A stretch of DNA of 64,000 bases from the NCBI GenBank assembly GCA_963805625.1, contig CAWDVE010000016.1:1-64000 (forward strand), in the 5' to 3' direction. The notes under the pieces were generated by a model. That model did not search any database. It saw only the letters and a list, made by a program, of their open reading frames with translations, and had not been told where the DNA came from. Below are positions 7,742 through 48,419 of the stretch, one piece after another. A program made the position numbers and the translations under genes. The first letter of the stretch is position 1; each line of letters opens with the position of its first letter. Source of the DNA: an uncultured Candidatus Rokubacteria bacterium (GTDB lineage Bacteria > Methylomirabilota > Methylomirabilia > Rokubacteriales > DASRDR01).

Positions 7742-7841
7742 CCAGGAGACCAACGACGCATGTTGCTGGCTGAAAATCCCTGGCTGAAAGGCCAGTGTGC
7801 ATGTTGGGTATAGCTGATTACATTTCCACGTCGGTTCGTCC

Positions 7842-7870
7842 TTGACCGGTGTCCGCTAAGTAGCTAATCT
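7842..7870 (+). promoter_or_regulatory. Sigma70 promoter (copy 1)
   Basis: TTGACC (7842-7847), 17 bp, TAATCT (7865-7870); conserved in all three copies. Confidence 0.75.
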
Positions 7871-7878
7871 GTAAGCGC

Positions 7879-7920
7879 GGGGTCGTGGTGGAGCCTGGTT
7901 ACCACACTGGCCTGTCAAGC
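7879..7920 (+). tRNA. Partial tRNA-Asp(GTC), 5' half only (fragment, not a complete tRNA)
   Basis: GGGGTCG-TG-GTGG-AGCCTGGTTA-CCAC-A-CTGGC-CTGTCAA-GC; no T-arm (TTCRA) follows. Confidence 0.8.
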
Positions 7921-7937
7921 AGGCGGGCAGATCGCAG

Positions 7938-7977
7938 CCCCTCGGTAAGTCGCGGACTTGCCGAGGGGTTTTTCTTT
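7938..7977 (+). terminator. Intrinsic terminator (copy 1)
   Basis: CCCCTCGGTAAGTC-GCG-GACTTGCCGAGGGG followed by TTTTTCTTT. Confidence 0.88.
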
Positions 7978-8288
7978 CAGTGCTTGGCTGGTGTGGGGTG
8001 ATTTAGGCTCACCGGGGGCGGTCGCGGGCATAGTTTCGCGCATAGAAAGATCGGCCCGTCCGACGAAGCGGATTGAGAGACGATAGCGGGCCGAAACATT
8101 CGGGGATCACGAATCGGCAGATCTTCGCCTCTGTGGCTGGACGTGGGCTCGTCCGATATGATGCCGACAGAGGGGGTTGTTATTGTGGATCGAGGTCGTG
8201 TCGCGGCGTGTAGGCCGATCGTGACCCTCACGCGCCACGATCCTCTCACTGAAGCCGGAGCGCGACGCGACGCATGACCGGGGGAGAC

Positions 8289-9350
8289 ATGGGTCACGAA
8301 CACTCGGATCACCATTACTCGCATGACCAGGACTCGATCGGCGGGCACGACCACGGACCCCAGGCCTCCGGTCCGGGTGGCGACGGGCACGGTCATACGC
8401 ACGGGTTCGTCGATCCGTCGATCGCCTCCACGAGTCGGGGGCTGTGGGCGCTCAAGTGGTCGTTCGTCGGCCTGCTGGCGACCGCGTTTTTCCAGATGGT
8501 CATCGTGGCGCTCTCGGGGAGCGTCGCGCTCCTCGCGGACACCATCCACAACTTCGCCGATGCGGCGACGGCGATCCCGCTCGGCATCGCGTTCTGGCTG
8601 GCCCGCCGGGCGGCGACCCGGCGCTTCACGTATGGCCTAGGGCGTGTCGAGGACCTCGCGGGGATCGCGATCGTTGCCACGATCCTGGCCAGCGCCCTGG
8701 TGGCGGCGTACGAGGCCGTGGGCCGGCTGCTACATCCCCAGCCGGTCACGATGCTCGGCGCGGTCATGGTGGCCGCCGTCATCGGGTTCCTGGGGAACGA
8801 GGCCGTCGCCGTGTTCCGGATCCGGGTGGGTCGCCAGATCGGAAGTGCGGCGCTGGTCGCCGACGGCTATCACGCGCGGGTCGACGGCTGGACCAGCCTC
8901 GCGGTCCTGGTCGGGGCGCTCGGGGTCTGGGCCGGGTATCCGATCGCCGACCCGGTCGTCGGGCTTCTGATCTCGGCCGCGATCGTCTGGCTCGGGGCCC
9001 AGGCGGGCCGCACCGTCCTCATGCGGATCCTCGATGGCGTCGACACCGAGACCGTGGAGGCGGTCACGCACGCGGCCGGACACGTGCCGGAGGTCCGCGA
9101 GGTGACCGACGTGCGGGCTCGTTGGATCGGTCACCGGCTCCATACCGAGCTGAGCGTGAGCGTGGCGCCTGAGCTGTCCGTCGCCGACGCGCACGCGGTC
9201 GCGAAGGCGGTACGCCACCGGCTTCTCCATGACGTGCCGCATCTCGGGAGCGTCACCGTGCACGTGGACCCGCTCGGGGAGGGGGGCGATGCCCATCACC
9301 GCATCCTGGAGCACGCGCACGACGGGCTGCCCGCGCACTCCCATCCCTGA
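8289..9350 (+). CDS. Cation diffusion facilitator (CDF) metal transporter
   Basis: His-rich N-terminus, SGSVALLADTIHNFAD, FTYGLGRVEDL, SAALVADGYHARVD, C-terminal dimerization domain. Confidence 0.92.
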   Translation: MGHEHSDHHYSHDQDSIGGHDHGPQASGPGGDGHGHTHGFVDPSIASTSRGLWALKWSFVGLLATAFFQMVIVALSGSVALLADTIHNFADAATAIPLGIAFWLARRAATRRFTYGLGRVEDLAGIAIVATILASALVAAYEAVGRLLHPQPVTMLGAVMVAAVIGFLGNEAVAVFRIRVGRQIGSAALVADGYHARVDGWTSLAVLVGALGVWAGYPIADPVVGLLISAAIVWLGAQAGRTVLMRILDGVDTETVEAVTHAAGHVPEVREVTDVRARWIGHRLHTELSVSVAPELSVADAHAVAKAVRHRLLHDVPHLGSVTVHVDPLGEGGDAHHRILEHAHDGLPAHSHP

Positions 9351-9436
9351 GGGCGGCGGCCGCTACCCGTCGTCTGGGCGGGGCCGCGCGGTGAGTTTCG
9401 ACGCATCCGTTCTGGTGTGCCGGGCCGGTGCGCCAA

Positions 9437-9800
9437 TTAGAGCGTGATGAGGCGCCGCCGGACCGCCTGATCGAGCACCAGGCCTGTGAGGTACGCGGCG
9501 CCCATGTTCCAGAGGGCGAGCCCCGCCGTCAGCACGAGGATGGCCCGATCCTCAGGGGACGCTTCCTCGGGGTTCCCGGCCGCCGCGAGCTCCAGCCCGC
9601 CGAAGAGGAGGATCACGCCCAGAACGGGCAGCGGAAACAGACGGAGCAGCGTGCGGGTCGAGTCGGCGAAGAAGAGGGCCACGCCGAGAAGGAGCATGTC
9701 GAGGATGACCAGGCGCCCCCGGCGAGCGCCCCGAAGCATACGTGCCCGGCGAGGCCGCCGGCGTCGCGGCACATCGGCACGCCGCCCAGCGCCGCGGCCG
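9437..9800 (-). pseudogene. C-terminal remnant of a sulfate/molybdate (MOT1-like) transporter, frameshifted
   Basis: GGVPMCRDAGGLAGHVCFGA in one frame, then LLRLFPLPVLGVILLFGGLELA in another. Confidence 0.65.
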
Positions 9801-9814
9801 CCTCCGGCCAGCGG

Positions 9815-10822
9815 TCACGCCGGCGGTGACCCGCCGACGCCACTGGGCGGCTCCCCGGGTCGGCGACGCCACCATGGGCGCATCGGACCGAGCCGGCGGA
9901 GCGCGATCTCCGGCACCAGCGCGAGCGTGACGAGCCCAACCAGCCTGGGCCAGAGATCGGCGGGCACGCGGGATCGGCGCCGGTGCTGCGTGAACACCTC
10001 CTTGGGCTCGCCGAGCCGCGTGCCGCCGGTCAGATCGGCGAGCTCCTGGAGGAACACCTCATCCGCCTCGAGCCGCCGGAACTCCTCTGCGTAGGGGACG
10101 ACCAACCCCACGAGCTGAGAGCCGACGAGCTGCTGGTCGCGCCGCTGGGAGAGCCCTGCGACGTACACGCCTTCCTGCCGGGCCGGGAACGTGCCGCGAT
10201 ATCGGCCGGGCGCCACCTGCTCGAGTTCGACGACCGTCTGGCGCTTGTCGGGGGTGACCACCCCGAGCTGCGTGTCGAGGAAGTTGATGAACCCGCCCGC
10301 CGGGTCGATCGCGTCCACCGTGACCACCCCGCGCGCGCTCTCGCACTGGACGGTGACCGCCATGTCTGTCCGGGCATCGGCGCGCAGCGTCCAGCGCACC
10401 GCCTGAGCCCAGAACTTGTTGAACTCGCGCCACGGGAGCCAGCGGAGCGCCCACTTCCCCTTGGCGTCCGCGGTGAACGCCACCGCCCGACCCAGCCCAT
10501 AGCGCCACGCGGCCAGGAGCGGATCCTCCTGGTGCGTCATGAGGACCTGGTCGGCCGTCGGCTTCGCGGTGGTCGCGACGTACCCGCCGAGGGGCGGCGC
10601 CTTGGCCCAGTCGACGTCCTGGATGGTCTCGTGGGACGGCTGCGTCACGAGGGGGCAGAATGGCTGCTCGACGAGCGTGGCCTTGGAGGCGAGCGGGGTC
10701 TCGAGCGTGAAGATGCGCGGGACCGTGGCGGTCTCGTCGGTGAAGTAGAACCGACCGCGCCCCCACTTCGCCACATTGGCCAGGAAGCGCAGCTCCGCTT
10801 CCGAGCCGATCGCAACGCTCGT
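9815..10822 (-). pseudogene. C-terminal fragment of a large VWA / glutamine amidotransferase-like membrane protein
   Basis: SVAIGSEAELRFLANVAKWGRGRFYF, DPLLAAWRYGLGRAVAFTAD, LEQVAPGRYRGTF; no N-terminus. Confidence 0.7.
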
Positions 10823-10839
10823 GAAGGTCAGCGTCATGG

Positions 10840-11512
10840 TCGTCGCGGAGGCCGAGCCGGTACCCGTACCCACGCATGGTGTGGATGAGCGCGGGGGCCC
10901 GATCCCGGTCGATTTTCCGGCGGAGGTGACTCACGTGGACGTCAACCGTATTGGTGAAGCCGTCGGGCTCATCGTCCCAGGCGTGCTCACCCAGCTGCCC
11001 ACGGCTGACGACGGCGCCCGCGTGACGCATCAGCACCTCGAGGATCGCGTACTCCTTCGGGGTGAGCGAAACGGGCTCCCGCTCCGCGCGACCCGATGGG
11101 TCGCGGGATCGAGGGTGAGGTCGGCCACCTCGAGGACCACAGGCCGGGTCAAGGCGGACCGGCGAAGCACCGCGGAGAGCCGGGCGAGCAGCTCCGCGAA
11201 CTCGAACGGCTTCGTGACGTAGTCGTCCGCGCCCGTGTTGAGCCCGGTCACGCGATCGTCCAGGCCCCGTCGGGCGGTGAGCATGAGGATCGGCGTCGCG
11301 ATGCGCCGGGCGCGAAGATCTCGGCAGACCCGGAGCCCATCCTTGTCCGGCAACATCCAGTCGAGCACGATGGCGTCGTAGGCGTTGGCGGTCGCGATCT
11401 CCTCCCCGGCCTCGCCCGCGACGGCCAGGTCGACGACCCAGCCCTCCTCTCGCAGGCCCTTGGCGAGGAGCCGCGCGCCTTTCTGGTCGTCTTCGATCAG
11501 CAGTAGCCGCAT
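10840..11512 (-). pseudogene. OmpR-family response regulator with a frameshift near 11071
   Basis: MRLLLIEDD...LDWMLP...GADDYVTKPF receiver; winged helix (LTPKEYAIL...VDVHVSHLRRKID...IHTMRGYGY) continues in another frame. Confidence 0.85.
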
Positions 11513-11567
11513 GAGCCTGACCTGCGTCGCGTGCTGTGATTCTACGCCCGGTCCGTGTGGCGTCGCC

Positions 11568-11584
11568 CTTCAGGATTCCTTAAG
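11568..11584. promoter_or_regulatory. Candidate OmpR-family (PmrA/QseB-type) direct-repeat box
   Basis: CTTCAG-GATTC-CTTAAG, 11-bp periodicity, between the divergent regulator and mgtE. Confidence 0.5.
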
Positions 11585-11767
11585 GTCGGATGCGCTAGAT
11601 TCGACGGGTTTCGCGGGGCCTGCGACCTAGACTGTGTCCCATACGGCGCCATCGGACCGACTGGGTCGCCAGAGCCGCTCGAGTGGACTGGAGAGTCCAC
11701 TCATCCACGCGAAGACGTGGCTGGGGTCACCGGGCCGCATGGGTCATGTCCTCGAGGAGGTGAGGGA

Positions 11768-13126
<1,359 letters not shown>

Positions 13127-13340
13127 CCGGGCAGCCCGTGTGCCGGCTTATCGACTCATGCTCCAGCGTGTCTGCCACCGGGCGCGGTGACACGCGGCCG
13201 CTGGCCTCGTTCTGCCTCGCCAGGTGTTCCCCGCACCGCCGCAGCCTGCCGATCCTTGTGGCCCCGCCCATCGGGAGTCGAGGCGTCTGGAATGGCACGG
13301 ATCCCACACGGTGGCACTGTCCAAGAGACGGGAGGCGCGT

Positions 13341-13661
13341 ATGAGCCAGCCGGACGAAATGTCCGTTCCGAGAGCGCAGGTCGGGCACCCAGGGTTGCTC
13401 CGCCACGCAGAGGAACGGGCAGCCAACCTTCAGAATCGTATCGCAGATGCGATCACGCATGCTGCGGGATCGATGTGGTTCGTCTATATCCACGTCGTCT
13501 GGTTTCTTCTCTGGCTCAGGACCGAGCCATTCAAGGACGTGTTTCCCTATGGACTGCTGACGATGTTCAGTGCGAGCCCAACGGGCGCGCCGGCCCTCGG
13601 CATGCAGATGGCGTACGTCACGTCGACGCGTCTCGACGCTCTCATCGAGCACACGGAGTAA
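13341..13661 (+). pseudogene. DUF1003-like membrane protein, internally deleted
   Basis: RIADAITHAAGSMWFVYIH...FPYGLLTM, then the conserved SLEAIFL...SQNR segment is missing. Confidence 0.6.
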
Positions 13662-13715
13662 TATCGCCCCACACGGCGACGACATGCCGGTGATGCGCGA
13701 CTGGACATCAGAGTG

Positions 13716-16298
13716 ATGAGCCATGCCGGAACGCCGTTCGCCGTGACAGCGCTTCACGGCCCCGTCGATGGGCTCCTCGCGGAGCTCCATGCCTCACGCG
13801 GAGGCTTGACGGCGGACGAAGCGCGTCGGAGGCTCGGCGAGGTCGGCCCGAACGAGCCCGCGCGAGCGCCCCGCACGGCCGGTCTCGTTCAAATCCTCCT
13901 GCTCCTGGCGAATCCGCTGGTCATCATCTTGCTGATCGCGAGCGCCGCCTCCGCGATCCTCGGCGAACGGGTCAACGCCTCCATCATCGTCCTCATGGTG
14001 GCGCTGAGTGTGGTGCTCAACTTCGTTCAGACCTATCGCTCCCATCGCGTGGCGGAGCGACTGCGCGACGTCGTGGCGCCGACGGCGACCGCGCTCCGCG
14101 CGGGCACCTGGATCGAGATTCGGCGGCGCGACCTGGTCCCCGGTGACATCGTCCGGGTGGCCGCCGGGGATCGCGTGCCGGCCGACGCGCGCCTCCTCGA
14201 GACGCGAGACCTCCACGTCCAGCAGGCCGCCCTGACGGGCGAGTCGATGCCGGCCGAGAAGGACGCGGGCGACCTCGCCGCCCCGCCGCGTCAACCGGCA
14301 GATGCCCGCAACGTCATTTTCCTCGGCACGTCGGTCGTGAGCGGAACGGCGACGGCACTGGTCGTCGCGACGGGGCCGGCGACTGCCTTCGGCGACATTG
14401 CCGCACGCTTGTCGACGCGTCCGCCCGAAACGGAGTTCGAGCGCGGCACCCGCCGGTTCGCACTCCTCATCATGCGCACGGTGTTCTTCCTCGTGCTCTT
14501 CGTGTTGCTGGCCGGCGCGCTCATGCATCACGCGTTTCTCGAGTCGCTCCTCTTCGCGGTGGCGCTCGCCGTGGGTCTGACGCCCGAGTTCCTGCCCATG
14601 ATCAGCGCCGTCACCCTCTCTCGCGGCGCCGCGCACATGGCGCGCCAGAAGGTGATCGTCAAGCATCTCGAAGCCATCGAGAACTTCGGCAGCATGGATG
14701 TCCTCTGCAGCGACAAGACCGGCACGCTCACGAGCGGCGACATGGTGCTCGACCGGCACCTCGACCCATTCGGCCAAGTATCGGAGCGGCCCGTGATCCT
14801 CGCCTCTCTGAACAGCACCCACCAGACTGGCATCAAGAGCCCCCTGGACGAGGCGATTCTGAAGCACGGCGGGGTTGCCATCAGCGGTTGCCGAAAGCTC
14901 GACGAGATCCCGTTCGACTTCGAGCGCCGCCGGCTCTCCGTCGTCGTCGAGAACGAGGGCGGGCGCTTACTGATCACGAAGGGGGCTCCCGAGGGCGTCC
15001 TCGCCTGCTGCACGGCCTACGAGATCGACGGGTGCCAGGCCGCGCTCGATGCGCCGACGCGGGCGCGCTGTGAAGCAACGTACCGAGAGCTGAGCGCTCA
15101 GGGATCGCGGGTCCTGGCCGTCGCCTACGCAGAGGTGCCCCTCCAGGCCGTGTATTCGGCTCGCGACGAGCGTGAGCTGGTACTCGCCGGCTTCGTCACC
15201 TTCTTTGATCCGCCGATGGAGGGCGTCGCCGAAGCGATCCGCGCGCTTCTCCGTGACGGTGTCGTGGTGAAGATTCTCACCGGCGACAACGAGCTGGTCG
15301 CCCAGCACGTCTGCGGTCAGGTCGGCCTCGATAATACCCGTATCGTCGGGGGCGAGGAGATCGAGCGCATGACCGACGGCGCGCTCGCGGCGGTGGCCGA
15401 GCAGGCCACCGTCTTTACTCGTGTCTCCCCCGCGCAGAAGAACCGCATCATCCTCGCGCTCAAGAGCCGCAACCACGTCGTCGGCTTCCTGGGCGACGGC
15501 ATCAACGATGCGCCCTCCATCCACACGGCGGACGTCGGGGTGTCCGTCGCGACCGCGGTCGATGTCGCGAAGGATGCCGCCGACATCATCCTGCTCGAGC
15601 GTAACCTGGACGTCCTGCACGCCGGCATCCTCGAGGGCCGCCGGGCTTTCGGCAACGTGATGAAGTATCTGCTGATGGGGACCAGCTCGAACTTCGGCAA
15701 CATGTTCAGCATGGCGGGCGCGTTCCTCTTTCTCCCGTTCCTGCCGATGTTGCCGACTCAGATCCTGCTCAACAATTTCCTCTACGATCTCGCCCAGATC
15801 ACGATTCCCACCGACAATGTCGACGACGCATTCATCCGGACCCCGCAGCGGTGGAACATCGGAGTTATCCAGCGGTTCATGATGGTGATCGGGCCGATCA
15901 GCTCGATCTACGACTTCTTGACGTTTGGCGTGCTGCTGTGGGTCTTCCGCGCCTCTGAGGCGCTGTTCCAGACGGGCTGGTTCGTCGAGTCGCTCGCGAC
16001 GCAGACCCTCGTCCTCTTCGTCATCCGGACCGTCGGCACTCCGTGGCGCAGTCGGCCGAGCCTTCCGCTGGCGGTGACCACGGTGCTCGTGGTGCTGGTC
16101 GGCTTGATCTTACCCTTCACGCCGGTTGCCGCGACGCTTGGCTTCGTGCCACTTCCGGGCGCGTACTTCGTGTTTCTCGGCGGGGCCACCCTGACCTATC
16201 TCGCCCTCGTCGAGGTGGTCAAACGCCGACTGATGCGGCAGCTGCTCGGCCTGGGCCCCGCATCGCCGGTGGCGAGGTCTGTGGCGCCGGTATCATAG
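13716..16298 (+). CDS. mgtA: Magnesium-translocating P-type ATPase
   Basis: TGES, GLTPEFLPMI, SDKTGTLT, GDGINDAP, SSNFGNMFS, FQTGWFVES. Confidence 0.95.
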   Translation: MSHAGTPFAVTALHGPVDGLLAELHASRGGLTADEARRRLGEVGPNEPARAPRTAGLVQILLLLANPLVIILLIASAASAILGERVNASIIVLMVALSVVLNFVQTYRSHRVAERLRDVVAPTATALRAGTWIEIRRRDLVPGDIVRVAAGDRVPADARLLETRDLHVQQAALTGESMPAEKDAGDLAAPPRQPADARNVIFLGTSVVSGTATALVVATGPATAFGDIAARLSTRPPETEFERGTRRFALLIMRTVFFLVLFVLLAGALMHHAFLESLLFAVALAVGLTPEFLPMISAVTLSRGAAHMARQKVIVKHLEAIENFGSMDVLCSDKTGTLTSGDMVLDRHLDPFGQVSERPVILASLNSTHQTGIKSPLDEAILKHGGVAISGCRKLDEIPFDFERRRLSVVVENEGGRLLITKGAPEGVLACCTAYEIDGCQAALDAPTRARCEATYRELSAQGSRVLAVAYAEVPLQAVYSARDERELVLAGFVTFFDPPMEGVAEAIRALLRDGVVVKILTGDNELVAQHVCGQVGLDNTRIVGGEEIERMTDGALAAVAEQATVFTRVSPAQKNRIILALKSRNHVVGFLGDGINDAPSIHTADVGVSVATAVDVAKDAADIILLERNLDVLHAGILEGRRAFGNVMKYLLMGTSSNFGNMFSMAGAFLFLPFLPMLPTQILLNNFLYDLAQITIPTDNVDDAFIRTPQRWNIGVIQRFMMVIGPISSIYDFLTFGVLLWVFRASEALFQTGWFVESLATQTLVLFVIRTVGTPWRSRPSLPLAVTTVLVVLVGLILPFTPVAATLGFVPLPGAYFVFLGGATLTYLALVEVVKRRLMRQLLGLGPASPVARSVAPVS

Positions 16299-16369
16299 GC
16301 CGCTTCATGGAGGAAGGTACGAGGTTCCCCCGGACGGGCGCGGGGCGGAGGGGCAGGACGACGAGGAGA

Positions 16370-17623: not shown

Positions 17624-17689
17624 TCACTCGGAGTCACGAACGCGTAGGCGACGCTCGCAACTCATTGCCGCACCAGGTCGATCCACGAC

Positions 17690-18239: not shown

Positions 18240-18466
18240 TATCGGGTAACGACGACGCTCCCGACAAGGACGCGCGAGGGATTCGGGATGACCTCTCCGT
18301 GGGCCTGTATGTCCTCCAGACAGAGCTCGATGGCTTCACGAATGTTGTCCAGCGCCCCGTCGATCGTGTCACCCTGGCTGTAGCAGCCTGGAAGAGAGGG
18401 GCACGTCGCGACGTACCCGCCGGTCTCATCCGGTTCCCAGAGCACCTTGAAGTCGTAGGCCTTCAT
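18239..18466 (-). CDS. hicB: HicB antitoxin (short form)
   Basis: [36 protein letters not shown]. Confidence 0.9.
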
Positions 18467-38243: not shown

Positions 38244-38259
38244 CCCTCTGGAGGACCTC

Positions 38260-39417: not shown

Positions 39418-39444
39418 CCCGGCGGGCAGGGAGCCCGGCACGTC

Positions 39445-41172
39445 GTGACGGTCCGCCCGAGCGCGTCGACGGAGCTTGCCACCGATGTCTTGGTGGTCGG
39501 CGGCGGCCTGGCCGCCCTCCGCGCGGCGTGGAGCGCCCGCCAGGCCGGCGCGCGCGTGCTGGTGCTGGTCAAGCGCAAGCTCGGCCAGAGCGGCTCCTCC
39601 GCCAACACGTCAGGCGGTTTCGCCGCGGCCTGTGACGATCTCGATCCCGCCGACGACCCGCGCCAGCACTACGCGGACACCGTCGTCGGCGGCGGGTTCG
39701 TCAACGAGCGCGTCCTGGCCCGGGCCCTCACCGAGGAGGCGCCGGCGCGGCTTCGCGAGCTGATCGCGATTGGCGCCCGGTTCCAGCGGCGGAACGGCGG
39801 CTACTATCTCTCGCCGAGCGGGGATCACCGCCATCCGCGGGTCCTTGTCCCGGAACACATCCGCGGTACCGATCTCACGTTCCCCCTCCGGGCCGCCGTC
39901 CTGGCCGCTGGTGTCGACGTGCTCGAGAACGTGCTGGTGATCGAGCTGCTGGTCGACGACGGCCGGGTCGTCGGGGCGCTCGGATATCGGCGAGACCGCG
40001 CCGAGCTGGTGCTGGTCCGGGCGGGGGCGACGGTCCTCGCCGCCGGCGGAGCCGGCCGCCTCTTCAGCGTGACCAGCAATCCGGTGGACGTGACGGGCGG
40101 CGGCTACGCGCTCGCGCTCCAGGCCGGCGCGGTTCTCCGCGACATGGAGTTCATCCAGTTCTACCCATGGCGTCTCATCCGTCCCTTCGGCTCGAGCCGC
40201 GTCCCCGTGCAGCCGTCGACGTTCGTGTCGGGCGCCCGGCTCTACAACGCGGCGGGCGAGCGGTTCATGGAGGCTTACGACCCCGTCCGGAAGGAAGCGG
40301 CCACGCGGGACGTCTCCGCCCGGGGTATCTTCGACCAGATCCGGTTCGGCAAGGCCGTGGACGGGGGCGTCGTCCTCGACGTGTCGGCCGTCCCCGACGA
40401 GGTGTTCCGCCACGAGAACAGCAAGGTGGTCGACCGCCTCGACCCGCACGGCATCGACTACCGCACGATTCCGCTGATCATCGCGCCCGAGGCCCACTTC
40501 GTCATGGGTGGGGTGCTGATCGACGAGTGGGGTGGCTCGAGCCGCCCTGGCCTCTACGCGTGCGGCGAGACGGCGGGCGGTGTTCACGGGGGCAATCGCC
40601 TGAACAGCAATGCGGTGCCGGAGACGCAGGTCTTTGGGCACCGCGCGGGCCAGGCCGCGGCGCGCCACGCCGGAACCGCGGCCCCCGGGATGGTCGACGA
40701 CGGGAGCCTCCGGCGATGGACGCGCCGGCTCGCCGCGCTCCGCGAGGAGAGCTCGGAGGTCTCGCCCGAGCTCAAGGCGGCGCTGACCGCCTTCCGGGAC
40801 GCCATGTGGCTCGGGCTCGGGATCGTCCGCACCGAGGCCGGGCTCAGCAAGGCGGCGGCGCAAGCCGGGGCGACCGAGGAGCACGCGGCCGGCATACGGC
40901 CCGAGACGCTGGGGGACCTGGTGGCCGCAGCCGAGCTCGGCCACCTCGCCGCTGCGGCTCGAGCGTCCGCGGCGAGTGCGCTGTTCCGGACCGAGAGCCG
41001 GGCCGCTCACTACCGGGAGGATCACCCCGACACCGATCCCGCCTGGGTCGCGACCGTCGTCTACGCGGGGGGGCAGGTGTGGCGGCGCTCCCTTGCCGTC
41101 GACCCCGGCGAGGCCCGCGAGCTGGCCCGGCCCGCCGCCCGGGCTCCCGGCGCCGACGAGTTCGTCGAATGA
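39445..41172 (+). CDS. SdhA/FrdA/NadB-family flavoprotein
   Basis: VVGGGLAA, DMEFIQFYP, TRDVSAR, HFVMGG, HGGNRL, RTESRAAHYRED. Confidence 0.88.
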   Translation: MTVRPSASTELATDVLVVGGGLAALRAAWSARQAGARVLVLVKRKLGQSGSSANTSGGFAAACDDLDPADDPRQHYADTVVGGGFVNERVLARALTEEAPARLRELIAIGARFQRRNGGYYLSPSGDHRHPRVLVPEHIRGTDLTFPLRAAVLAAGVDVLENVLVIELLVDDGRVVGALGYRRDRAELVLVRAGATVLAAGGAGRLFSVTSNPVDVTGGGYALALQAGAVLRDMEFIQFYPWRLIRPFGSSRVPVQPSTFVSGARLYNAAGERFMEAYDPVRKEAATRDVSARGIFDQIRFGKAVDGGVVLDVSAVPDEVFRHENSKVVDRLDPHGIDYRTIPLIIAPEAHFVMGGVLIDEWGGSSRPGLYACGETAGGVHGGNRLNSNAVPETQVFGHRAGQAAARHAGTAAPGMVDDGSLRRWTRRLAALREESSEVSPELKAALTAFRDAMWLGLGIVRTEAGLSKAAAQAGATEEHAAGIRPETLGDLVAAAELGHLAAAARASAASALFRTESRAAHYREDHPDTDPAWVATVVYAGGQVWRRSLAVDPGEARELARPAARAPGADEFVE

Positions 41173-42038
41173 ACGCTGCCGTCCCCGCCTCGCTCGGACC
41201 GACCACGCACGAGGCCGACCTGCTCGCGCGGACCGGCGCCGCCGAGACCGCGCGGGACCGGACTCGCCGCGTCGGGATCGCCGTCGGCCGCGCCGTGGTC
41301 CTCGTCGTCTTCCTCGGAGGCTGGGGCTTCGTCTCCGGCCGGCTCGTCGACGCCGAGTTCCTCAGCGATCCTGGTGGCGTCGCGGCGGCCTTCATCGCCC
41401 TGGTGACGTCCGGCCGCCTCTTTCCCCATCTCGGCCAGACGGTGATGGAAGTGCTGGGCGGGTACGCGATCGGCGTCCTCCTGGGCGTGGCGCTGACCGT
41501 CCTCGTCGCTGCGGTCGAGGCCGCCCACCGGGTGTTGCGCCCGTTTCTGATCGCCTTCTACTCCATCCCGAAGATCGCCCTCGCGCCCCTCATCGTCATG
41601 TGGTTCGGCCTCGCCACCGCGCCCAAGATCATCCTGGCTGCGGCGTTCGTCTTCTTCGTCGTGTTCATGAACATGGTGGCCGGGGTCTACACCGTGAACC
41701 CGCACCAGGCCAACGCACTTCGGGTCATGGGTGCCGGCCGCTTCGAGCTCCTCACGAAGCTGATCCTGCCCGGCACGGTGCCGTACCTGATGACCGGCCT
41801 CCGCCTTGCCGTGCCCGAGGCCCTGATCGGGGCCGTCGTGGGTGAGTTCATCTCGGCCAACCGCGGTCTGGGATACCTGGTCACCTCGGCCGCTGCGCAG
41901 TTCAACACCGCAGGGACGATGGCCGCCATCCTGGCGCTGCTCGTGATCGTGGCCGTCATGGACCTGGCCCTGAGCCTCGCCGAGCGGCGCCTCCTCCGGT
42001 GGTGTCCCCGCCCGGCAGCGTCGGTCGTGAGGGGGTGA
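41169..42038 (+). CDS. ABC permease (SsuC/TauC-like), second
   Basis: PKIALAPLIVMWFGL, GAVVGEF; ATGA overlap. Confidence 0.9.
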   Translation: MNAAVPASLGPTTHEADLLARTGAAETARDRTRRVGIAVGRAVVLVVFLGGWGFVSGRLVDAEFLSDPGGVAAAFIALVTSGRLFPHLGQTVMEVLGGYAIGVLLGVALTVLVAAVEAAHRVLRPFLIAFYSIPKIALAPLIVMWFGLATAPKIILAAAFVFFVVFMNMVAGVYTVNPHQANALRVMGAGRFELLTKLILPGTVPYLMTGLRLAVPEALIGAVVGEFISANRGLGYLVTSAAAQFNTAGTMAAILALLVIVAVMDLALSLAERRLLRWCPRPAASVVRG

Positions 42039-42128
42039 GACACCACCCGTCCGCTGGCGGAGGAGTCCCCGGACATTCATCCAGCGGTCCCGGAGGTCCC
42101 GGGACCCACACAGAGGGAGAGTCAGCCG

Positions 42129-43145
42129 ATGAGAACGTGGAAGGTATTCGCGGCCGTGGCCGCGCTGCTGGCCAGCCTGACCGGCGCGCCCCCGTCGGAG
42201 GCCCAGACACCGGTCAAGGTGAAGCAAGCCGGCTTCAAGGTCATCGACCTAGCGGTGCCGTTCATCGCCAAGTCCGAGGGATTCTTCGGGAAGAACGGCC
42301 TCGACTGGGAGTACGTGGAGATCGACAGCGGCAAGCTGGGGGTGGCCGCGCTTCTGTCAGGGAACGCCCAGTTCACCGACTTCGCCGTGGATGACGTGGC
42401 CGCGCTCCAGAAGGAGGGCAAGGACCCGATTCTCGTCTACAGCATGGTCAACGCCCTGACCATGGACATGGTGGTGCGGAACGACGTCCTGGACCAGCTC
42501 AAGCTCACGCCGGCCTCGCCCCTGGGCGACAAGCTCAAGGCGCTCAAGGGGATGACGTTCGGGATCACGCGGCCGGGCGCGGTGACCCAGCTCTTCCCGT
42601 CCTACCTCCTGCGCAAGGGCGGGTTCGACCCGGAGAAGGACGCCACCTTCGTGCAGATCGGCGGCGGGCAGGCCCTGGTCGCGGCCATGAAGGCCAAACG
42701 GATCGACGCCTTCATGCTGTCGGCGCCGGCGCCGTACCTCCTCGAGCGGGACAAGGTGGGCACGGTCATGCTCAAGAACTCGGCCGGCGAGGGGCCGCCG
42801 GAGTTCGGCGACTTCGCGTTCGAGTGCATCGCCGTCCTCAAGTCCTGGGCGGAGAAGAATCCCCGGCTCGTCGAGGCGTACATCCGGTCGCTGAATCAGG
42901 CCTATGACTGGATGCTATCGAACCGCCCGGCGGCCCTGGCGCACCTGAAGAAGTACTTCGCGGAGACCGACGAGGCGACGCTCAAGATCTCGTTCGACGC
43001 CCTCATCCCCGCCATCCGGAAGGGTGGCCGGCTGACCCAGGCCGCGGTCACGAACCAGCTGAACGTCATGAAGGCGATCGGCGCGGTCGAGGGGACGCCG
43101 GACACGACGGAGGGCGTGCTCTGGACGAACGCGTATAATAAGTAG
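42129..43145 (+). CDS. ABC substrate-binding protein (SsuA/NMT1-like), second
   Basis: Signal peptide; paralog of 34870-35892 (QAGF, GITRPGA, EGVLWTN). Confidence 0.9.
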   Translation: MRTWKVFAAVAALLASLTGAPPSEAQTPVKVKQAGFKVIDLAVPFIAKSEGFFGKNGLDWEYVEIDSGKLGVAALLSGNAQFTDFAVDDVAALQKEGKDPILVYSMVNALTMDMVVRNDVLDQLKLTPASPLGDKLKALKGMTFGITRPGAVTQLFPSYLLRKGGFDPEKDATFVQIGGGQALVAAMKAKRIDAFMLSAPAPYLLERDKVGTVMLKNSAGEGPPEFGDFAFECIAVLKSWAEKNPRLVEAYIRSLNQAYDWMLSNRPAALAHLKKYFAETDEATLKISFDALIPAIRKGGRLTQAAVTNQLNVMKAIGAVEGTPDTTEGVLWTNAYNK

Positions 43146-43348
43146 CGACCGGCACCGCGGGCAGGCGCCCGTAGTGTCCGAATATTCGGCCGGGGTACCC
43201 GATACGGACGGGCTCAGGCCAACGACGCATGTTGCTGACTGAAAATCCCTGGCCGAAAGGCCAGTGTGCACGTTGGGTGTATTTGATATCATCTCCAACG
43301 TCGTTTCGCCCTTGACCGGTATCCGCTAAGTAGCTAATCTGTAAGGAC

Positions 43349-43390
43349 GAGGTCGTGGTGCAGCCTGGTTAGCACACTGGCCTGTCAAGC
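43349..43390 (+). tRNA. Partial tRNA-Asp(GTC), 5' half only (copy 2)
   Basis: GAGGTCG-TG-GTGC-AGCCTGGTTA-GCAC-A-CTGGC-CTGTCAA-GC. Confidence 0.8.
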
Positions 43391-43407
43391 AGGCGGGCAG
43401 ATCAAGG

Positions 43408-43447
43408 CCCCTCGGTAAGTCGCGGACTTGCCGAGGGGTTTTTCTTT
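43408..43447 (+). terminator. Intrinsic terminator (copy 2)
   Basis: Same 14-bp hairpin plus T-tract as copy 1. Confidence 0.88.
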
Positions 43448-43564
43448 GGCTGCTTGGCTGGTGGTGGGTGATTTGGGGCCCGCCGAGGGCGGTCGCGGGC
43501 ATAGTTTCGAGCATACCGAAATCGACCGGGCAAGACTCGTTCGTCAGGAGTCTCGCGCTACCGA

Positions 43565-44641
43565 TCAAAACGCCGAGGCGGTTCCTCGGTGCAACCGGTC
43601 TCCGGCGGCGAGGCACCGCGGACAGGCGATGCCGCCGCCGTGAAGGCCCACCTCGTAAGTGAGGCCGTTGCAGCGGCCGCACCGAGCTGGCTCCCCCGTG
43701 CGCTCGACCGGATCCCAGGTCAGCGCGAGTGGCACCTCACGGCGTTTGTCAGCAAGCGTGCCGGCAAATACGACGCGCGGCAGATAGAGTCGGAGGACGC
43801 TCAGCAGCGAGAGCTCCGCCGACAGCCGATACTTCGCCCCCAGCTCGCCCAGCCGCCCGTCGCGCTCGCGCTCGATTGCCAGGCGCTTCGATCCGAGGGC
43901 GGCCTGCTCCGAGTTGTCGGGCGGCAGTGCGGCCCGCCGTCTCTCGAGCTCCCGGATCAGCTCGGTGTAGTAGGCCCGGGCTCGCCCGCTCTCGCGGGCC
44001 AGTCGTGCCTCGAACTCTCGCCGCCGGGATCCCAGCGGGGCGGAGAGACGCTGCTCGATCTCGCGCCGCGCCACCGCGTAGGCCTCGGCGGTGGGCCGTT
44101 CCGCCATCATGGGCCACGCCTCTACGGGGTCGCCAGCGACACCGTGGCGGTCGAGCGCATCTTGGAGGCGGCGCAGGAGGCGACCGTCGGTGAGGTTCAC
44201 CGCGACCTCTAGGAGGTCCTCCTCCCGCTCGTCCGAGAGATACCGCACCCGGAAAAGGAAGAGCCCGGTCGGGACCCACCAGGGTCGCCCGCCCTGCGGG
44301 GTCCAGGCGCTCTCGAAGAAGCGATAGGCACGCCGCAGCTGGTCAGCTGTGCTCGGCGTTGCGGTCACCGCACTGTCCAGGAACGCGCGTGCCACGCGCC
44401 CGGACGCCGTAGTGTCCCGAAGCAGACGCTCCAGGGTAGGGCTGGCGAACGACACCAGCTCGGCGTCGGGCATCTCGTCGAGCAGCTCGGGGTCGAAGGC
44501 GAGCTGGCGCACCGTCAGGTCCCCGGACCCGGGTTCCGGCCACAGGACCGTGTGGAGCCCGTCGGCCCTTCGCTCCACGACACCACCCGCCTGCTCGATC
44601 GCCGTGACGGCGAACGCCTCGACTCCGCCCGGCACCTTCAC
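43565..44641 (-). CDS. YqhG-like hypothetical protein with coiled coil and C-terminal Zn ribbon
   Basis: Coupled to the SNF2 gene by a GTGA overlap; CGRC...CPRC at the C-terminus. Confidence 0.7.
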   Translation of the reverse strand: MKVPGGVEAFAVTAIEQAGGVVERRADGLHTVLWPEPGSGDLTVRQLAFDPELLDEMPDAELVSFASPTLERLLRDTTASGRVARAFLDSAVTATPSTADQLRRAYRFFESAWTPQGGRPWWVPTGLFLFRVRYLSDEREEDLLEVAVNLTDGRLLRRLQDALDRHGVAGDPVEAWPMMAERPTAEAYAVARREIEQRLSAPLGSRRREFEARLARESGRARAYYTELIRELERRRAALPPDNSEQAALGSKRLAIERERDGRLGELGAKYRLSAELSLLSVLRLYLPRVVFAGTLADKRREVPLALTWDPVERTGEPARCGRCNGLTYEVGLHGGGIACPRCLAAGDRLHRGTASAF

Positions 44642-46722
44642 GACGGGCCCCCGGCGGCGAGTACGTCGCCAAATAGCCGGTCATCGAGCGCCTTGGCCTC
44701 GAGGTAGGCGGTCTTGGCCGCGAGCAGCTGATCACCGAGGGCCTGCATCTCGGCCCGGAGGGCCGAGGGGTTCGCGGACGCGAGCCACAGGTCGGTCACG
44801 AGCTCCTCGAAGTCCTGGTCGCTGGCGAGCTGGCCCAGGATCATGTCGATCTCGCCAATCACGAGTTCGAACATGTTGATCTTGGCGTCCAGCACGTCTA
44901 GCAGCATCTCCTCGATGGTGCCCGCGGCGACCAGGTTGAACACGTGGACGTCGCGCGTCTGGCCGACCCGGGATAGCCGCCCGATCCGCTGCTCGATCCG
45001 CATCGGATTCCACGGGAGGTCGTAGTTCACGAGCCCGTGCGCGAACTGAAGATTGCGACCCTCGCCGCCGGCTTCCGTCGAGAGCAGGATCCGGGCGGGG
45101 CCTTCGAACGCGCGAACGGCGGCGTCCTTCTCGACGCGGCGCAGCGCACCGTGATAGAGGGCGAGCGGCTCACCCGCCTCGCGCAGCATCCCGGCCAGAT
45201 ACTCCTGGGTCGCACGGAAGCGGGTGAAGACCAAAAGCTTGTCCGGCCATGTGCGCACCAGGCTGAGGAGGGCGCGGCTCTTGGCGTCGTCGCCGACCGC
45301 CCGCGCCTGCTCGTCGAACCGCCGCAACTCCTGGAGGAGGGGTCCCGGACGCGTCCCGTTGACGAGGCGCTCCAGCGTCGCGGCGGCGGCCCGGGGGCTC
45401 GAACCCAACTCCATCTGGAGGGTCTGTGCCATCATCCGGGTGACCTCGCCACCCGACCGGCAGCTCTGACGGAGGAACTCCGACAGCTCGGTGTACAGCG
45501 CCTGCTCGGCTGATGTTGGCGTCACGGTCACCGTCCTGGCCACCCGGCGCGTGAGCGCCACCGCGGTGGTCGCGCGACGGTTTCGGACCATGACGTCGGT
45601 GAGGAGGCGGCGGAGGCCCTCGGGGTCCCGGGGCTGTCGGCGGTCCCCCCGGGCCACGTGATCGCGGTGGAACGCCCGGAGTGTGCTGAGCTGACCGGGC
45701 TGGAGCAGCGTGACCAGGTTGAACAGCTCGTCCAGATCGTTCTGGACCGGCGTCGCCGTAAGGAGCAGGAGGTAGGTCCGGCGGAGCCGGTTCACGAACT
45801 GCCAGAGAACGGTGCGGGCGTTCCGCAGGTGATGGGCCTCGTCCACGATCACGAGGTCGTACGCGATTTCCTCGATCACGCGGGCATGCTCCGGCCGCTT
45901 GGCCGTGTGGAAGGAGGCGACCACGCGCTCGAAGCGCTGCCAGGCCTCCCGCCCCGCTTGCCGGAACGGCTCCGCGTCGTGGCTCACGAAGTCGAGGCAG
46001 GCTTTCCGCCGCAGCTCCTCTTGCCACTGAGTCACCAGCCCGGGCGGCGCCAGGACCAGCACGCGTCGCACCAGCCGCCGCCGCCAGAGCTCGGCCAGGA
46101 TGATCGTTGCCTCTACGGTCTTGCCGAGCCCGACCTCGTCGGCCAGCAGTGCGCGTCCCCGCATCCGGTTGAGCACCGTCCTGACCGCGGTGATCTGATG
46201 CTCGTACGGGATCACGTCCCGCAGGAAGGGGAGCGAGACCAGCTCGTCGAATCCCGGGGTCAGGGCGAGCGCGTGGCCCCAGCGGTTGAGCTGGTAGGCG
46301 GACAGCGGCTCCTCGTGCCCCTCGGCGAACGCCGCGAGCACCTCGGCATCGGCGGGATCGGTGCGGACGGGGACGGCCGCGATCTCGCGCGAGGCTTCTC
46401 CCCAGGCGAGGTTGAGCGACCGCTGGCCCAGCGGTCCCACGCGAAACCGAGGAGGATCCGCCGTCTCCACGTGCAGCTCCAGCCGCTGGCCAGGCCCGGC
46501 CGTCGGGCGGAGGTCCTGCAGGCGTGGCACCTCGAGCGCGCCATGTTCTCCGTCCCACCTACCCGCCACGACGCGCCCGGATTCCTCCAGGAACTCGACC
46601 GTGGTGGGCTCTCCGGTCGGCGACACGAGGTGGCGGAATCCCCCGTTCAGAGGGATGAGCCCCGCCTCCCACGCCTCGCGCGGAACGGGGAGCTCGAACC
46701 GGTCGCCGCGTCGTATCGGCAT
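44638..46722 (-). CDS. SNF2-family helicase/ATPase (YqhH/RapA-like)
   Basis: LADEVGLGKT, DEAH, TATPVQN, STEAGGEGRNLQ, YDLPWNPMRIEQRIGR. Confidence 0.93.
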   Translation of the reverse strand: MPIRRGDRFELPVPREAWEAGLIPLNGGFRHLVSPTGEPTTVEFLEESGRVVAGRWDGEHGALEVPRLQDLRPTAGPGQRLELHVETADPPRFRVGPLGQRSLNLAWGEASREIAAVPVRTDPADAEVLAAFAEGHEEPLSAYQLNRWGHALALTPGFDELVSLPFLRDVIPYEHQITAVRTVLNRMRGRALLADEVGLGKTVEATIILAELWRRRLVRRVLVLAPPGLVTQWQEELRRKACLDFVSHDAEPFRQAGREAWQRFERVVASFHTAKRPEHARVIEEIAYDLVIVDEAHHLRNARTVLWQFVNRLRRTYLLLLTATPVQNDLDELFNLVTLLQPGQLSTLRAFHRDHVARGDRRQPRDPEGLRRLLTDVMVRNRRATTAVALTRRVARTVTVTPTSAEQALYTELSEFLRQSCRSGGEVTRMMAQTLQMELGSSPRAAAATLERLVNGTRPGPLLQELRRFDEQARAVGDDAKSRALLSLVRTWPDKLLVFTRFRATQEYLAGMLREAGEPLALYHGALRRVEKDAAVRAFEGPARILLSTEAGGEGRNLQFAHGLVNYDLPWNPMRIEQRIGRLSRVGQTRDVHVFNLVAAGTIEEMLLDVLDAKINMFELVIGEIDMILGQLASDQDFEELVTDLWLASANPSALRAEMQALGDQLLAAKTAYLEAKALDDRLFGDVLAAGGPS

Positions 46723-46852
46723 GGCTCAGTGTCGGACGGACCCCCCGCTTCGCGCAATGTGTCGGGACCGTGTCGCTCGAGAGGTCGGGCGTCAGAGGGG
46801 AATGCGGCCCCCTCGACCGGGGCGCACTGGGTTGCTCCTGTTTGCCGCGCCC

Positions 46853-47146
46853 TCAGAGGCGCGACCGCCAGTAGCCTGGCCGCCGATGGAGGTGTGCGAC
46901 CGCGACGATGAGAATCCGTGACGGCTCGACGCGGTAGAGGAGGCCGTAGGGAAACCCTCGGACGAGGGTACGCCTGAGTCGACGGCCGAAAGGGCGACCG
47001 CTGTCCGGGAACTCGAGGATCTGTTCGTAGGCTCGCCGGACCGCAAGGATGAAGTCCAGACCTAAACTCTCGACGTGGCTCTCGAAGTACCGCGCGGCTG
47101 AGACGAGCTCGGCGTCCGCCTCAGGATGAAACTCGACCCTTCTCAC
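46853..47146 (-). CDS. RelE/ParE-family toxin
   Basis: FHPEADAEL...FPYGLLYR...IVAVAHLHRRPGYW. Confidence 0.9.
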   Translation of the reverse strand: MRRVEFHPEADAELVSAARYFESHVESLGLDFILAVRRAYEQILEFPDSGRPFGRRLRRTLVRGFPYGLLYRVEPSRILIVAVAHLHRRPGYWRSRL

Positions 47147-47370
47147 CGAAGCGTCGAACGGACCTTGTCGAGCACCTGCTCCGCAGGGATGCCGGCGACC
47201 TTGCCGGATTCGAGCTCGTCGAGTCTACGCTCGGCCTCCTCAAGCCAGGCCTGCTCCGCGTCGCGGTCGGACTCCGGGTCGAGGCTGGAGATGAGGCGTT
47301 GGGCGAGTTGAGCGCGCTCCTTGGGCGGAAGCTGCAGAGCCTTTGACTCGATCTCGCGCGGGTCACCCAT
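47143..47370 (-). CDS. Addiction-module antitoxin
   Basis: ALQLPPKERAQLAQRLISSL...AWLEEAERR; GTGA overlap with the toxin. Confidence 0.88.
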   Translation of the reverse strand: MGDPREIESKALQLPPKERAQLAQRLISSLDPESDRDAEQAWLEEAERRLDELESGKVAGIPAEQVLDKVRSTLR

Positions 47371-47499
47371 GCCCGAACGATATCACATCTGGGTGCCCCT
47401 TGAACCCCCGCCGGGAGGTGGTGGGGCGGCGAGGGCCGTATGCAGGACGACGTCGCGTCAACTGTCCGTTTCTTGTCCGTGATGGCGTCGGTTCCGGGT

Positions 47500-47797
47500 C
47501 GATCCCGGCGATGAGGTTGTCGCCCATGCCGAGGCCCACGCCGTCCCGTTCCAGGGTTCGATGGATCTCGGCCGCCGCATCGGCACCCGGCTCGTCGGGT
47601 GGAAGACACGGCAAGGCGGCGAGGAGTTCACCGACGAGCTTCAGCTGGCGCGCAGTCTTCGCCCCGGCGAGCAGCTCGAAGCGCGTGATGACGGTGGTCC
47701 GGAGCTGACCACGGTCGAGCTCCAGGGAGACCCGATTCGCCGCCGGAGCTCGGCCCTCCAGGAAGTCGATGAGCACGTCGCTGTCGGCGACCATCAT
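47500..47797 (-). pseudogene. vapC: VapC/PIN toxin with a disrupted C-terminus
   Basis: MMVADSDVLID...ITRFEL...DNLIAGI; similarity degrades afterwards. Confidence 0.7.
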
Positions 47798-48026
47798 CGC
47801 CAGGACCTCCGGAGCGCCTCGGCCGCATCTCGCAGCGATTTGCCCTCCTGGGACGGCATGGCCCCCTTCAGGAGCACGGCGCGCTTCCGTTGCGCCCGGC
47901 CTCCGCGCGCAGGTAGGCGTCGAGGGCCTCACTCACGAACTGCGAGAACCCCTTGGCACCACGGTGGGCCGCGAGTTCGAGCAGCTTGGCGCGATGCTCC
48001 GGTTTCATCTCGATCGTCGTGCGCAT
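47794..48026 (-). pseudogene. VapB-like RHH antitoxin, frameshift near 47892
   Basis: MRTTIEMKPEHRAKLLELAAHRGAKGFSQFVSEAL; second frame ends LRRSWR-stop with an ATGA overlap to vapC. Confidence 0.7.
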
Positions 48027-48050
48027 CAGCAGTCCTCCGGGGACCATTGT

Positions 48051-48064
48051 CATGCACGTGCATG
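48051..48064. promoter_or_regulatory. Perfect 14-bp palindrome, probable vapBC operator
   Basis: CATGCACGTGCATG, 24 bp upstream of the antitoxin start. Confidence 0.5.
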
Positions 48065-48170
48065 CATGAGTAAATCCGAAGGGCACTGGCCAAAGAGGCC
48101 AATGATCACCCGGGCATAGTTTGGCAGGGGCGCCCTTGACCCATGTGCGCTAAGTAGCTAATCTGCAATG

Positions 48171-48212
48171 GGGGTCGTGGTGCAGCCTGGTTAGCACACT
48201 GGCCTGTCAAGC
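48171..48212 (+). tRNA. Partial tRNA-Asp(GTC), 5' half only (copy 3)
   Basis: GGGGTCG-TG-GTGC-AGCCTGGTTA-GCAC-A-CTGGC-CTGTCAA-GC. Confidence 0.8.
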
Positions 48213-48229
48213 AGGTGGGCGAAATAGAA

Positions 48230-48269
48230 CCCCTCGGTAAGTCGCGGACTTACCGAGGGGTTTTTCTTT
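48230..48269 (+). terminator. Intrinsic terminator (copy 3)
   Basis: CCCCTCGGTAAGTC-GCG-GACTTACCGAGGGG-TTTTTCTTT (perfect stem). Confidence 0.88.
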
Positions 48270-48419
48270 GGGTGCTTGGCTGGCGGTGGGTGATTTCGGG
48301 CCTGGGGAGGGCGGTCGCGGGCATAGTTTCGGGCATAGCGAGAATCGGCCGTCCAGACTGACTCGCGAGACGTTCGCGCGACCGATCGATCCACAGCAAC
48401 GCCTGGCGCATCGGCCGGT

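What the first reader, a model, noticed from the sequence alone, without database searches (positions are those of the whole stretch)
7750..48354. Three promoter / tRNA-Asp 5'-half / terminator modules delimit tandem integrase-less cargo islands
Seen: three direct copies (about 7750-8060, 43219-43530, 48131-48354) of TTGACC-N17-TAATCT, the first 42 nt of tRNA-Asp(GTC) breaking at the same point just after the anticodon loop, a 14-bp terminator and GGCATAG repeats. Gene content changes abruptly at each copy: about 35.5 kb of metal and catabolic cargo between copies 1 and 2, about 4.8 kb of helicase and TA cargo between copies 2 and 3. No tyrosine integrase is in the window. Known: most tRNA-targeting elements duplicate the 3' part of the tRNA; use of the 5' half has been described for cyanobacterial tycheposons. 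Inference: this is a family of elements that supply their own promoter and 5' half to rebuild tRNA-Asp, insulate their cargo with a terminator, and stack as a cassette-like array mobilised in trans.
Basis: partly seen in the sequence, partly recalled or inferred. Interest (0 to 1): 0.88.

Follow-up and report, generated by a model that had tools for sequence, protein, structure and literature searches.

The report
Promoter-carrying tRNA-half integration junctions
Three repeats, each holding a promoter-like motif, the first half of an aspartate tRNA gene and a hairpin, are likely the joints left where mobile DNA blocks stacked up in front of the intact aspartate tRNA gene, a rare mirror-image form of a known way of building gene islands, likely driven by an integrase found intact only in relatives.

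Summary
The three modules are real. The genome holds three more, and its one called tRNA-Asp lies 29.6 kb past copy 3 on the same strand. No integrase lies in the array. In two relatives (Ca. Rokubacteria) an intact tyrosine integrase ends 19 nt before tRNA-Asp and carries the same GGGCATAG pair, so the modules are very likely its attachment junctions. The same terminator arm follows 5' halves of Met, Val, Lys and Arg tRNAs in the order. Of 60 tRNA-Asp junctions, 47 have no integrase sequence upstream; 35 of these carry a palindrome resembling the anticodon stem, against 0 of 13 integrase-derived arms. Upstream and downstream sides reassort freely. 5'-fragment islands (159 of 3919 in Islander) and integrase-less tandem islands are known. 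This scan noted a like array at tRNA-Ala in another genome (e1-7430115, unchecked). Verdict: new variant of a known kind, interest 0.48.

The parts
7747..8056 (+). Junction module 1 (arm type A)
7778..7797 (.). Palindrome resembling the tRNA-Asp anticodon stem, 6-nt spacer; role unexplained
7842..7870 (+). Promoter-like TTGACC-N17-TAATCT, 8 nt before the tRNA half
   Evidence: not listed by the scan in the other two copies
7879..7920 (+). tRNA-Asp nt 1-42, D-stem variant GTGG/CCAC; inferred crossover in the anticodon loop
7938..7973 (+). Predicted intrinsic terminator
8026..8045 (+). GGGCATAG pair, inferred integrase arm-binding sites
   Evidence: same pair in the 3' end of the integrase gene
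8070..43210 (.). Block 1, a mosaic: cation efflux gene, Mg/cation transport cluster, HicAB remnant, IS, 23 kb catabolic cluster; no tyrosine integrase
10822..18042 (.). MgtE / P-type ATPase / porin cluster, 93% to the region beside the module array of G013
18042..18573 (-). HicAB remnant; the same HicAB directly follows the terminator arm at 11 other junctions, so likely the trace of a lost junction
19906..43210 (.). Catabolic cluster found at module-free loci in relatives; likely captured chromosomal DNA whose similarity to G004 runs up to the edge of module 2
43216..43527 (+). Junction module 2 (arm type A): palindrome 43247-43266, promoter-like 43312-43340, half 43349-43390, terminator 43408-43443, arm site 43497-43504
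43565..48047 (-). Block 2: unknown ORF, SNF2 helicase, ParE and antitoxin, PIN toxin and small partner; starts at a module in G011 too
48084..48349 (+). Junction module 3 (arm type B): palindrome 48084-48104, arm site 48112-48119 at -51, promoter-like 48136-48164, half 48171-48212, terminator 48230-48265, arm sites 48319-48338
48420..49623 (-). DUF6036 nucleotidyltransferase plus XRE-HTH pair opening block 3; the same pair follows 6 junctions

Best explanation
The three modules are likely attachment junctions of a tandem island array that grows on the upstream side of the intact tRNA-Asp gene, made by a tyrosine integrase that likely crosses over in the anticodon loop. Shown: the anatomy, the co-oriented intact tRNA, the integrase gene abutting tRNA-Asp in two relatives with the same GGGCATAG pair, and the reassortment of left and right sides. 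Inferred mechanism: a circle carries arm sites, a promoter, tRNA nt 1-42, the core, a terminator and more arm sites. On insertion the resident promoter and 5' half are pushed upstream and capped by the newcomer's terminator, while the newcomer's promoter and 5' half rebuild the tRNA. Each round leaves one module. Most right ends in this genus carry no integrase and have their own promoter, so they would depend on a visiting integrase element (int, xis and, in G044, a Prim-Pol replication gene). Toxin-antitoxin pairs at the block starts would stabilise them. The DNA between the ends is captured chromosomal DNA, further reshuffled by deletion, IS insertion and likely homologous recombination between modules. 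In this genome the array is likely orphaned: only a 65-nt integrase remnant is left, and it likely serves as the tRNA's promoter. My odds: junction identity about 0.9; integrase-less ends still usable by the integrase about 0.55.
For: Intact tRNA-Asp at C16:77971-78048, same strand; 5 of 6 full copies co-oriented upstream of it, one of them (C22) placed there by synteny only. 361-aa PF00589/phrog_1 integrase with an xis-like ORF, ending 19 nt before tRNA-Asp in G004 and G008. Arm sites at -51/-63 in the integrase gene and at -51/-62 in type B arms; at +105/106 in 19 of 21 halves. 12 of 35 distinct integrase loci end just before a same-strand tRNA 5' end (Asp, Met, Arg, Pro, Val), several with TTGAC-N17-TAnnnT in their 3' end. 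The same terminator arm follows 5' halves of Met, Val, Lys, Arg. A complete 9.2 kb example in G044. Of 60 junctions, 47 lack integrase sequence upstream; palindrome in 35 of 47 against 0 of 13. Same block start behind different arms and the reverse. The tRNA half tracks the upstream side (mean identity 0.974 same-upstream, 0.936 same-downstream, 0.950 neither) and the arm-site segment tracks the downstream side (0.975, 0.917, 0.886) (pairs are not independent).
Against: No excision, circle or empty site was seen; no reads were laid; the terminator pattern had 0 matches in viral contigs. The spacer between core and terminator does not track the downstream block (0.848 vs 0.871 and 0.832) and one half is a D-stem chimera, so crossover at the loop is not singled out from homologous recombination. 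The GTGG/CCAC half, common in junctions, was found in an intact-like tRNA in only 1 of 183 genomes, and that copy has an altered T arm. Type A and D arms have only degenerate upstream arm sites. One copy in this genome is inverted and 500 kb away; the G013 array runs into a tRNA-Ala 3' fragment, not tRNA-Asp. The promoter motif fails the consensus scan. The metagenome junctions were found with a pattern from the module and many look like close kin.
Confidence: 0.7

Rival explanations
1. The modules are inert scars of decayed elements (CIME-like relics). The integrase made them once; today's arrays are shuffled only by homologous recombination between the 85-90% identical modules, and the integrase-less arms are not a functional class.
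For: Mosaic, IS-ridden blocks; truncated arms that start inside the terminator; spacer unlinked to the downstream block and a chimeric D stem; frameshifted integrase remnants beside junctions; variant halves almost never in a working tRNA.
Against: Arm-site spacing and terminator pairing are kept across many junctions; integrase-less arms share a palindrome and promoter that integrase-derived arms lack, which independent deletions of an integrase gene would not give.
Confidence: 0.18
2. Each module is a donor's left junction (a host promoter plus host 5' half joined to the element's terminator arm) carried along as flanking DNA, so the promoter is not part of the mobile unit.
For: Promoter type C precedes intact tRNA-Asp in G007 and G014 with no other module match, and resembles the one in another genus; tycheposon islands are proposed to grow by flanking capture (10.1101/2020.12.28.424599, passages).
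Against: Type B arms hold GGGCATAG at the integrase spacing between palindrome and promoter; in Val, Met and Pro elements the promoter lies inside the integrase gene's own 3' end; the arms join many unrelated upstream genes.
Confidence: 0.08
3. The unit is kept as a small RNA gene: promoter, tRNA half and terminator give an RNA of about 95 nt with its own role, for example as a decoy for tRNA-cutting toxins.
For: Promoter motif, half and terminator are all conserved; D-stem changes are compensatory; toxin-antitoxin pairs flank most junctions. Rfam has no match.
Against: The break point, arm sites and integrase link explain the conservation without an RNA role; the same terminator follows halves of five different tRNAs. 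No RNA data were examined.
Confidence: 0.04

Closest known systems
tDNA islands with a displaced 5' fragment and anticodon-centred site (Islander, PMC4383910; passages read)
   Same: Intact tRNA plus co-oriented 5' fragment upstream; tyrosine integrase; 159 of 3919 islands there are of this 5' kind.
   Different: Islander requires an integrase in each island and lists only 4 tandems of three or more; here most blocks have none, so the array would be filtered out. The passages I saw do not describe a carried promoter or terminator.
CIMEs and tandem accretion (review PMC5704250, passages); Dehalococcoides ssrA islands (PMC3146451, passages)
   Same: Tandem blocks bounded by att sites, many without integration genes (15 such ssrA islands), growing by integration at the gene-proximal site.
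   Different: Those use the 3' end of the target; ssrA islands use a serine recombinase; here a tyrosine integrase, the 5' side, and a recurrent integrase-less end with its own promoter.
Tycheposons (bioRxiv 10.1101/2020.12.28.424599, passages)
   Same: tRNA-specific tyrosine integrases, xis and primase modules, partial tRNAs between stacked elements, islands made mostly of non-element DNA.
   Different: Different phylum; relation of the integrases not tested; use of the 5' half not stated in the passages seen (supplements closed).
Integron cassette arrays and CALINs (recalled)
   Same: Integrase-less units in one orientation that reassort.
   Different: Blocks are 5-35 kb multi-gene mosaics, bounded by tRNA-derived double-stranded att sites rather than attC.
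Myxococcus phage Mx9 (recalled only; paper not held)
   Same: Recalled as integrating at the 5' part of a tRNA-Gly gene.
   Different: A single phage, not an array of integrase-less blocks; not checked here.

Membership tests
tDNA island, 5'-fragment type (Islander) | Intact tRNA with a co-oriented 5' fragment upstream in the same replicon | tested here: met
   four fragments upstream of C16:77971 on the same contig and strand
tDNA island, 5'-fragment type (Islander) | Fragment is an end fragment with the crossover at the anticodon loop | tested here: met
   nt 1-42, identity ends 2 nt after the loop; the exact crossover is inferred
tDNA island, 5'-fragment type (Islander) | Each island encodes a tyrosine integrase | tested here: not met
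   none in the window or on C22; met for elements at the same site in G004 and G008
CIME | Bounded by att sites, without integration genes | tested here: met
CIME | Derived by deletion from an ICE or IME | tested here: inconclusive
   13 of 60 arms are integrase-derived, 47 are not; no conjugation or relaxase family among the 70 proteins; the autonomous example has Prim-Pol
CIME | Mobilised in cis by an adjacent element | not testable with these tools
   needs excision or transfer assays
Tycheposon | Integrase of the tycheposon clade | not tested
   no tycheposon integrase was compared
Tycheposon | Integration plus replication module on the element | tested here: not met
   absent from the window's blocks; present in G044 and G036 elements
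Integron / CALIN | Short, mostly single-gene promoterless cassettes | tested here: not met
   blocks of 4.8 and 35.5 kb with many operons
Integron / CALIN | attC sites | not tested
   no attC model was run; Rfam scan empty

The most novel reading that the evidence does not exclude
The integrase-less ends are a dedicated non-autonomous family: a palindrome mimicking the integrase core site lets the end capture chromosomal gene blocks, and visiting integrase elements then stack and swap the blocks at tRNA-Asp. This would be a tRNA-anchored, integron-like system for multi-gene cargo that also replaces the promoter of a single-copy tRNA at every insertion.
Probability: 0.3. Interest if true: 0.75.

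Novelty: new variant of a known kind. Interest (0 to 1): 0.48.

Why it matters
It gives the full anatomy of the rare 5'-side kind of tRNA island (promoter, half, terminator, arm sites, integrase) in an uncultured lineage, and shows arrays that integrase-requiring island finders would drop. If the integrase-less ends are active, they are a route for moving 5-35 kb metabolic blocks. The sequence in front of tRNA-Asp differs among at least five types within one genus, one of them a piece of the integrase's own catalytic-motif coding sequence, which makes promoter turnover on an essential gene testable. Close integrase relatives face either end of a tRNA, a natural series for studying how site orientation switches.

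Tried and rejected
Rfam scan of the window: 0 matches. Promoter and terminator consensus scan: missed both motifs. GC profile: no step at the modules. Viral contigs: 0 matches to the terminator pattern. Phage records: best integrase matches about 28%. Sequencing runs holding part of the stretch were listed but no reads were laid, so nothing is drawn from them. I first read the sequence upstream of the intact tRNA as the native host promoter; rejected because it matches the integrase gene (81.5% over 65 nt). The large serine recombinase at 458-2560 was not taken as the driver: serine enzyme, no link to the arm sites seen. An integrase downstream of a junction (L150) could have made the blocks autonomous; it is a frameshifted fragment. 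The palindrome as a crossover site: homology often runs past it and the one clean break (G003) falls just after it, not in the spacer; unresolved. One search had a script error and was redone. Eight paper searches listed no paper on these elements in Rokubacteria; Williams 2002, Julien 2003 and the TIGER paper were not held, so prior description there is not excluded. Place and sequence look-ups in earlier scan notes were empty.
Full report
Observation. Each has a TTGACC-N17-TAATCT motif 6-8 nt before tRNA-Asp nt 1-42, a 15-17 bp hairpin with a T run, and GGGCATAG repeats. The hairpin is supported by pairing and covariation over 18 sequences. The promoter is a conserved motif only; the consensus scan missed it. 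Pfam confirms the cargo labels. None of the 24 PF00589 matches in the genome lies in the window or on C22.

The locus. The window is the start of contig C16 of a 7.27 Mb assembly (99.9% complete, 6.3% contaminated by the tool's figures). Six full modules exist: three in the window, C16:68317, C22:52748 and C16:579841, plus remnants on C22. One tRNA-Asp is among the 63 tRNAs called, at C16:77971-78048, same strand, downstream. In G003, G009 and G011 the genes upstream of the array match C22:17.6-27.5 kb, and in G012 and G008 the genes downstream of tRNA-Asp match C16:98-110 kb. I infer that C22 precedes C16 and that the variable region exceeds 130 kb; the assembly does not show this join. The copy at 579841 is inverted and outside the array. 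Record titles for two relatives read Candidatus Rokubacteria.

The integrase. In G004 and G008 a tyrosine integrase gene (361 aa in G004; PF00589, phrog_1) with an xis-like ORF upstream ends 19 nt before an intact tRNA-Asp, and its last codons hold the GGGCATAG pair at -51 and -63. Type B integrase-less arms, such as copy 3, have the repeat at -51 (and -62). On the other side it lies at +105/106 in 19 of 21 halves. Reading these as arm-binding sites follows from established knowledge of lambda-type integrases and from the fact that related integrases carry their own repeat variant at both ends; binding was not tested. Among 61 genomes only these two hold a near-identical integrase; the best match in the window's genome is 54-56%. 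Upstream of this genome's intact tRNA lies a 65-nt piece 81.5% identical to the integrase's catalytic-motif coding region. The same piece is what remains in G002, G003, G004, G008, G019 and three metagenome loci. It contains an extended -10-like motif, so I infer that it was kept as the promoter.

A wider family. Of 35 distinct integrase loci examined, 12 end just before a same-strand tRNA 5' end (Asp, Met, Arg, Pro, Val); many others face a tRNA 3' end. In a tree of 32 rows the 5' label needs 5 changes, at least 3 forced by well-supported branches (labels are my reading; four short rows dropped; six loci, three of them duplicates, not used). The same terminator arm follows 5' halves of Met, Val, Lys and Arg tRNAs. 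The exact terminator pattern occurs in 15 of 251 genomes of the phylum, in several copies only in this genus. G044 holds a complete 9.2 kb element: half tRNA-Met, terminator, HicAB, Prim-Pol, xis-like, HTH, integrase, intact tRNA-Met.

Integrase-less ends. With 46 metagenome matches (40 distinct) and the genome loci, 60 distinct tRNA-Asp junctions had at least 110 nt upstream. Thirteen have integrase-derived sequence there and 47 do not. A palindrome CACTGGC-N6/7-GCCAGTG lies upstream in 35 of the 47 and 0 of the 13; a TTGAC-type promoter motif in 39 of the 47 and 1 of the 13. The palindrome resembles the anticodon stem itself. At one mismatch there are 10 such sites in the genome: 6 in module arms, 1 the tRNA, 3 elsewhere (the pattern was read off the modules, so this count is partly circular). 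Its role is unexplained. Many of the metagenome loci look like close kin, so these counts overstate independence.

Reassortment. Of 63 downstream sequences, 13 clusters have two or more members: a HicAB start at 11 junctions, the HTH/DUF6036 start at 6, and a pair that I label BrnT/BrnA-like from recall at 4. The same start follows different arms, including an integrase-coded arm and an integrase-less one (L175, L159). The end that precedes copy 3 drives an intact tRNA-Asp in G005, and the helicase block begins at a module with another arm in G011. Over 44 distinct junctions the tRNA half tracks the upstream side and the arm-site segment the downstream side, but the spacer just after the core tracks neither. 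The switch zone is thus about 70 nt wide, and homologous recombination likely contributes.

Against the cassette reading. The 35.5 kb block is a mosaic. Its 19.9-43.2 kb catabolic cluster occurs, whole or in large pieces, at 79-93% in 6 of 14 genus relatives; 8 flank stretches from five of them held no module. The 10.8-18.0 kb cluster occurs at 93% beside the G013 array; an IS and a HicAB remnant lie between. No relative shows an empty site with both flanks. The variant half GTGG/CCAC was in an intact-like tRNA in 1 of 183 genomes. The G013 array ends at a tRNA-Ala 3' fragment. No reads were laid, so excision is untested. What is conserved is the pair of ends, not the cargo.

Known context. 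Islander reports 159 of 3919 islands with a 5' fragment and demands an integrase per island (PMC4383910, passages). Integrase-less tandem islands and accretion are described (PMC5704250; PMC3146451; passages). The tycheposon preprint describes stacked elements, partial tRNAs and captured flanking DNA, but the passages seen do not say which half (supplements closed). PMC10872708, PMC11610982, PMC10111431 and PMC11476347 were read in passages and added nothing decisive. Eight searches found no account of this family; three key papers were not held.

Verdict. A new variant of a known kind. The junction identity is well supported. The new parts are the dominant integrase-less end with promoter and core-like palindrome, the terminator arm shared across tRNA targets, and the turnover of the tRNA's promoter. 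Whether the ends are active is open. Interest 0.48.

Noticed in passing
window 458-2560 (+): Large serine recombinase (Resolvase + Recombinase, 700 aa) next to an IS91 zinc-binding remnant at 2587-3201; likely a separate mobile element.
   Followed up: no
window 18652-18686; G000 C16:579966-579994: 3' fragments of tRNA-Glu(CTC) inside the blocks and just upstream of a type A arm; pieces of other tRNA islands have been mixed in.
   Followed up: partly
window 43236-43254: The sequence at the left edge of the type A palindrome resembles the tRNA-Phe anticodon loop and 3' stem over about 15 nt; may be a scar of a Phe-targeting element or chance.
   Followed up: no
G000 C10:522427-535510: A second 5'-type island in this genome, at tRNA-Leu(TAA), with 5' fragment nt 1-39 and an integrase about 46% identical to the Asp one.
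   Followed up: partly
G000 C2, C7, C20, C10, C12, C17: Long arrays of classic 3' fragments at tRNA-Lys(CTT) (16 fragments listed), Gly, Arg and Glu.
   Followed up: no
L040:1-1350 (G003), L062:2800-3300 (G004), L052 (G009): The same tRNA-Asp is also used from its 3' side by classic elements; the G009 integrase is 66% identical to the 5'-type one.
   Followed up: partly
L128 (G016), L101 (G055): tRNA-Val(TAC) and tRNA-Asp are about 1.2 kb apart in other genera and 40 kb apart in G019; the variable region seems to grow between them from both sides.
   Followed up: partly
L041:9951-10539 (G003): 589 nt at 99.7% identity to window 7210-7798, breaking just after the palindrome into a helicase gene; a very recent transfer.
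   Followed up: partly
G000 C22:66551-68869: SSB, Rad52-like and PD-(D/E)XK genes inside the inferred array, a phage-like recombination set that could drive shuffling between modules.
   Followed up: no
G000 C15 and C21; C13 and C25: Duplicated tRNA clusters and integrase regions on different contigs suggest strain mixture in the assembly.
   Followed up: no
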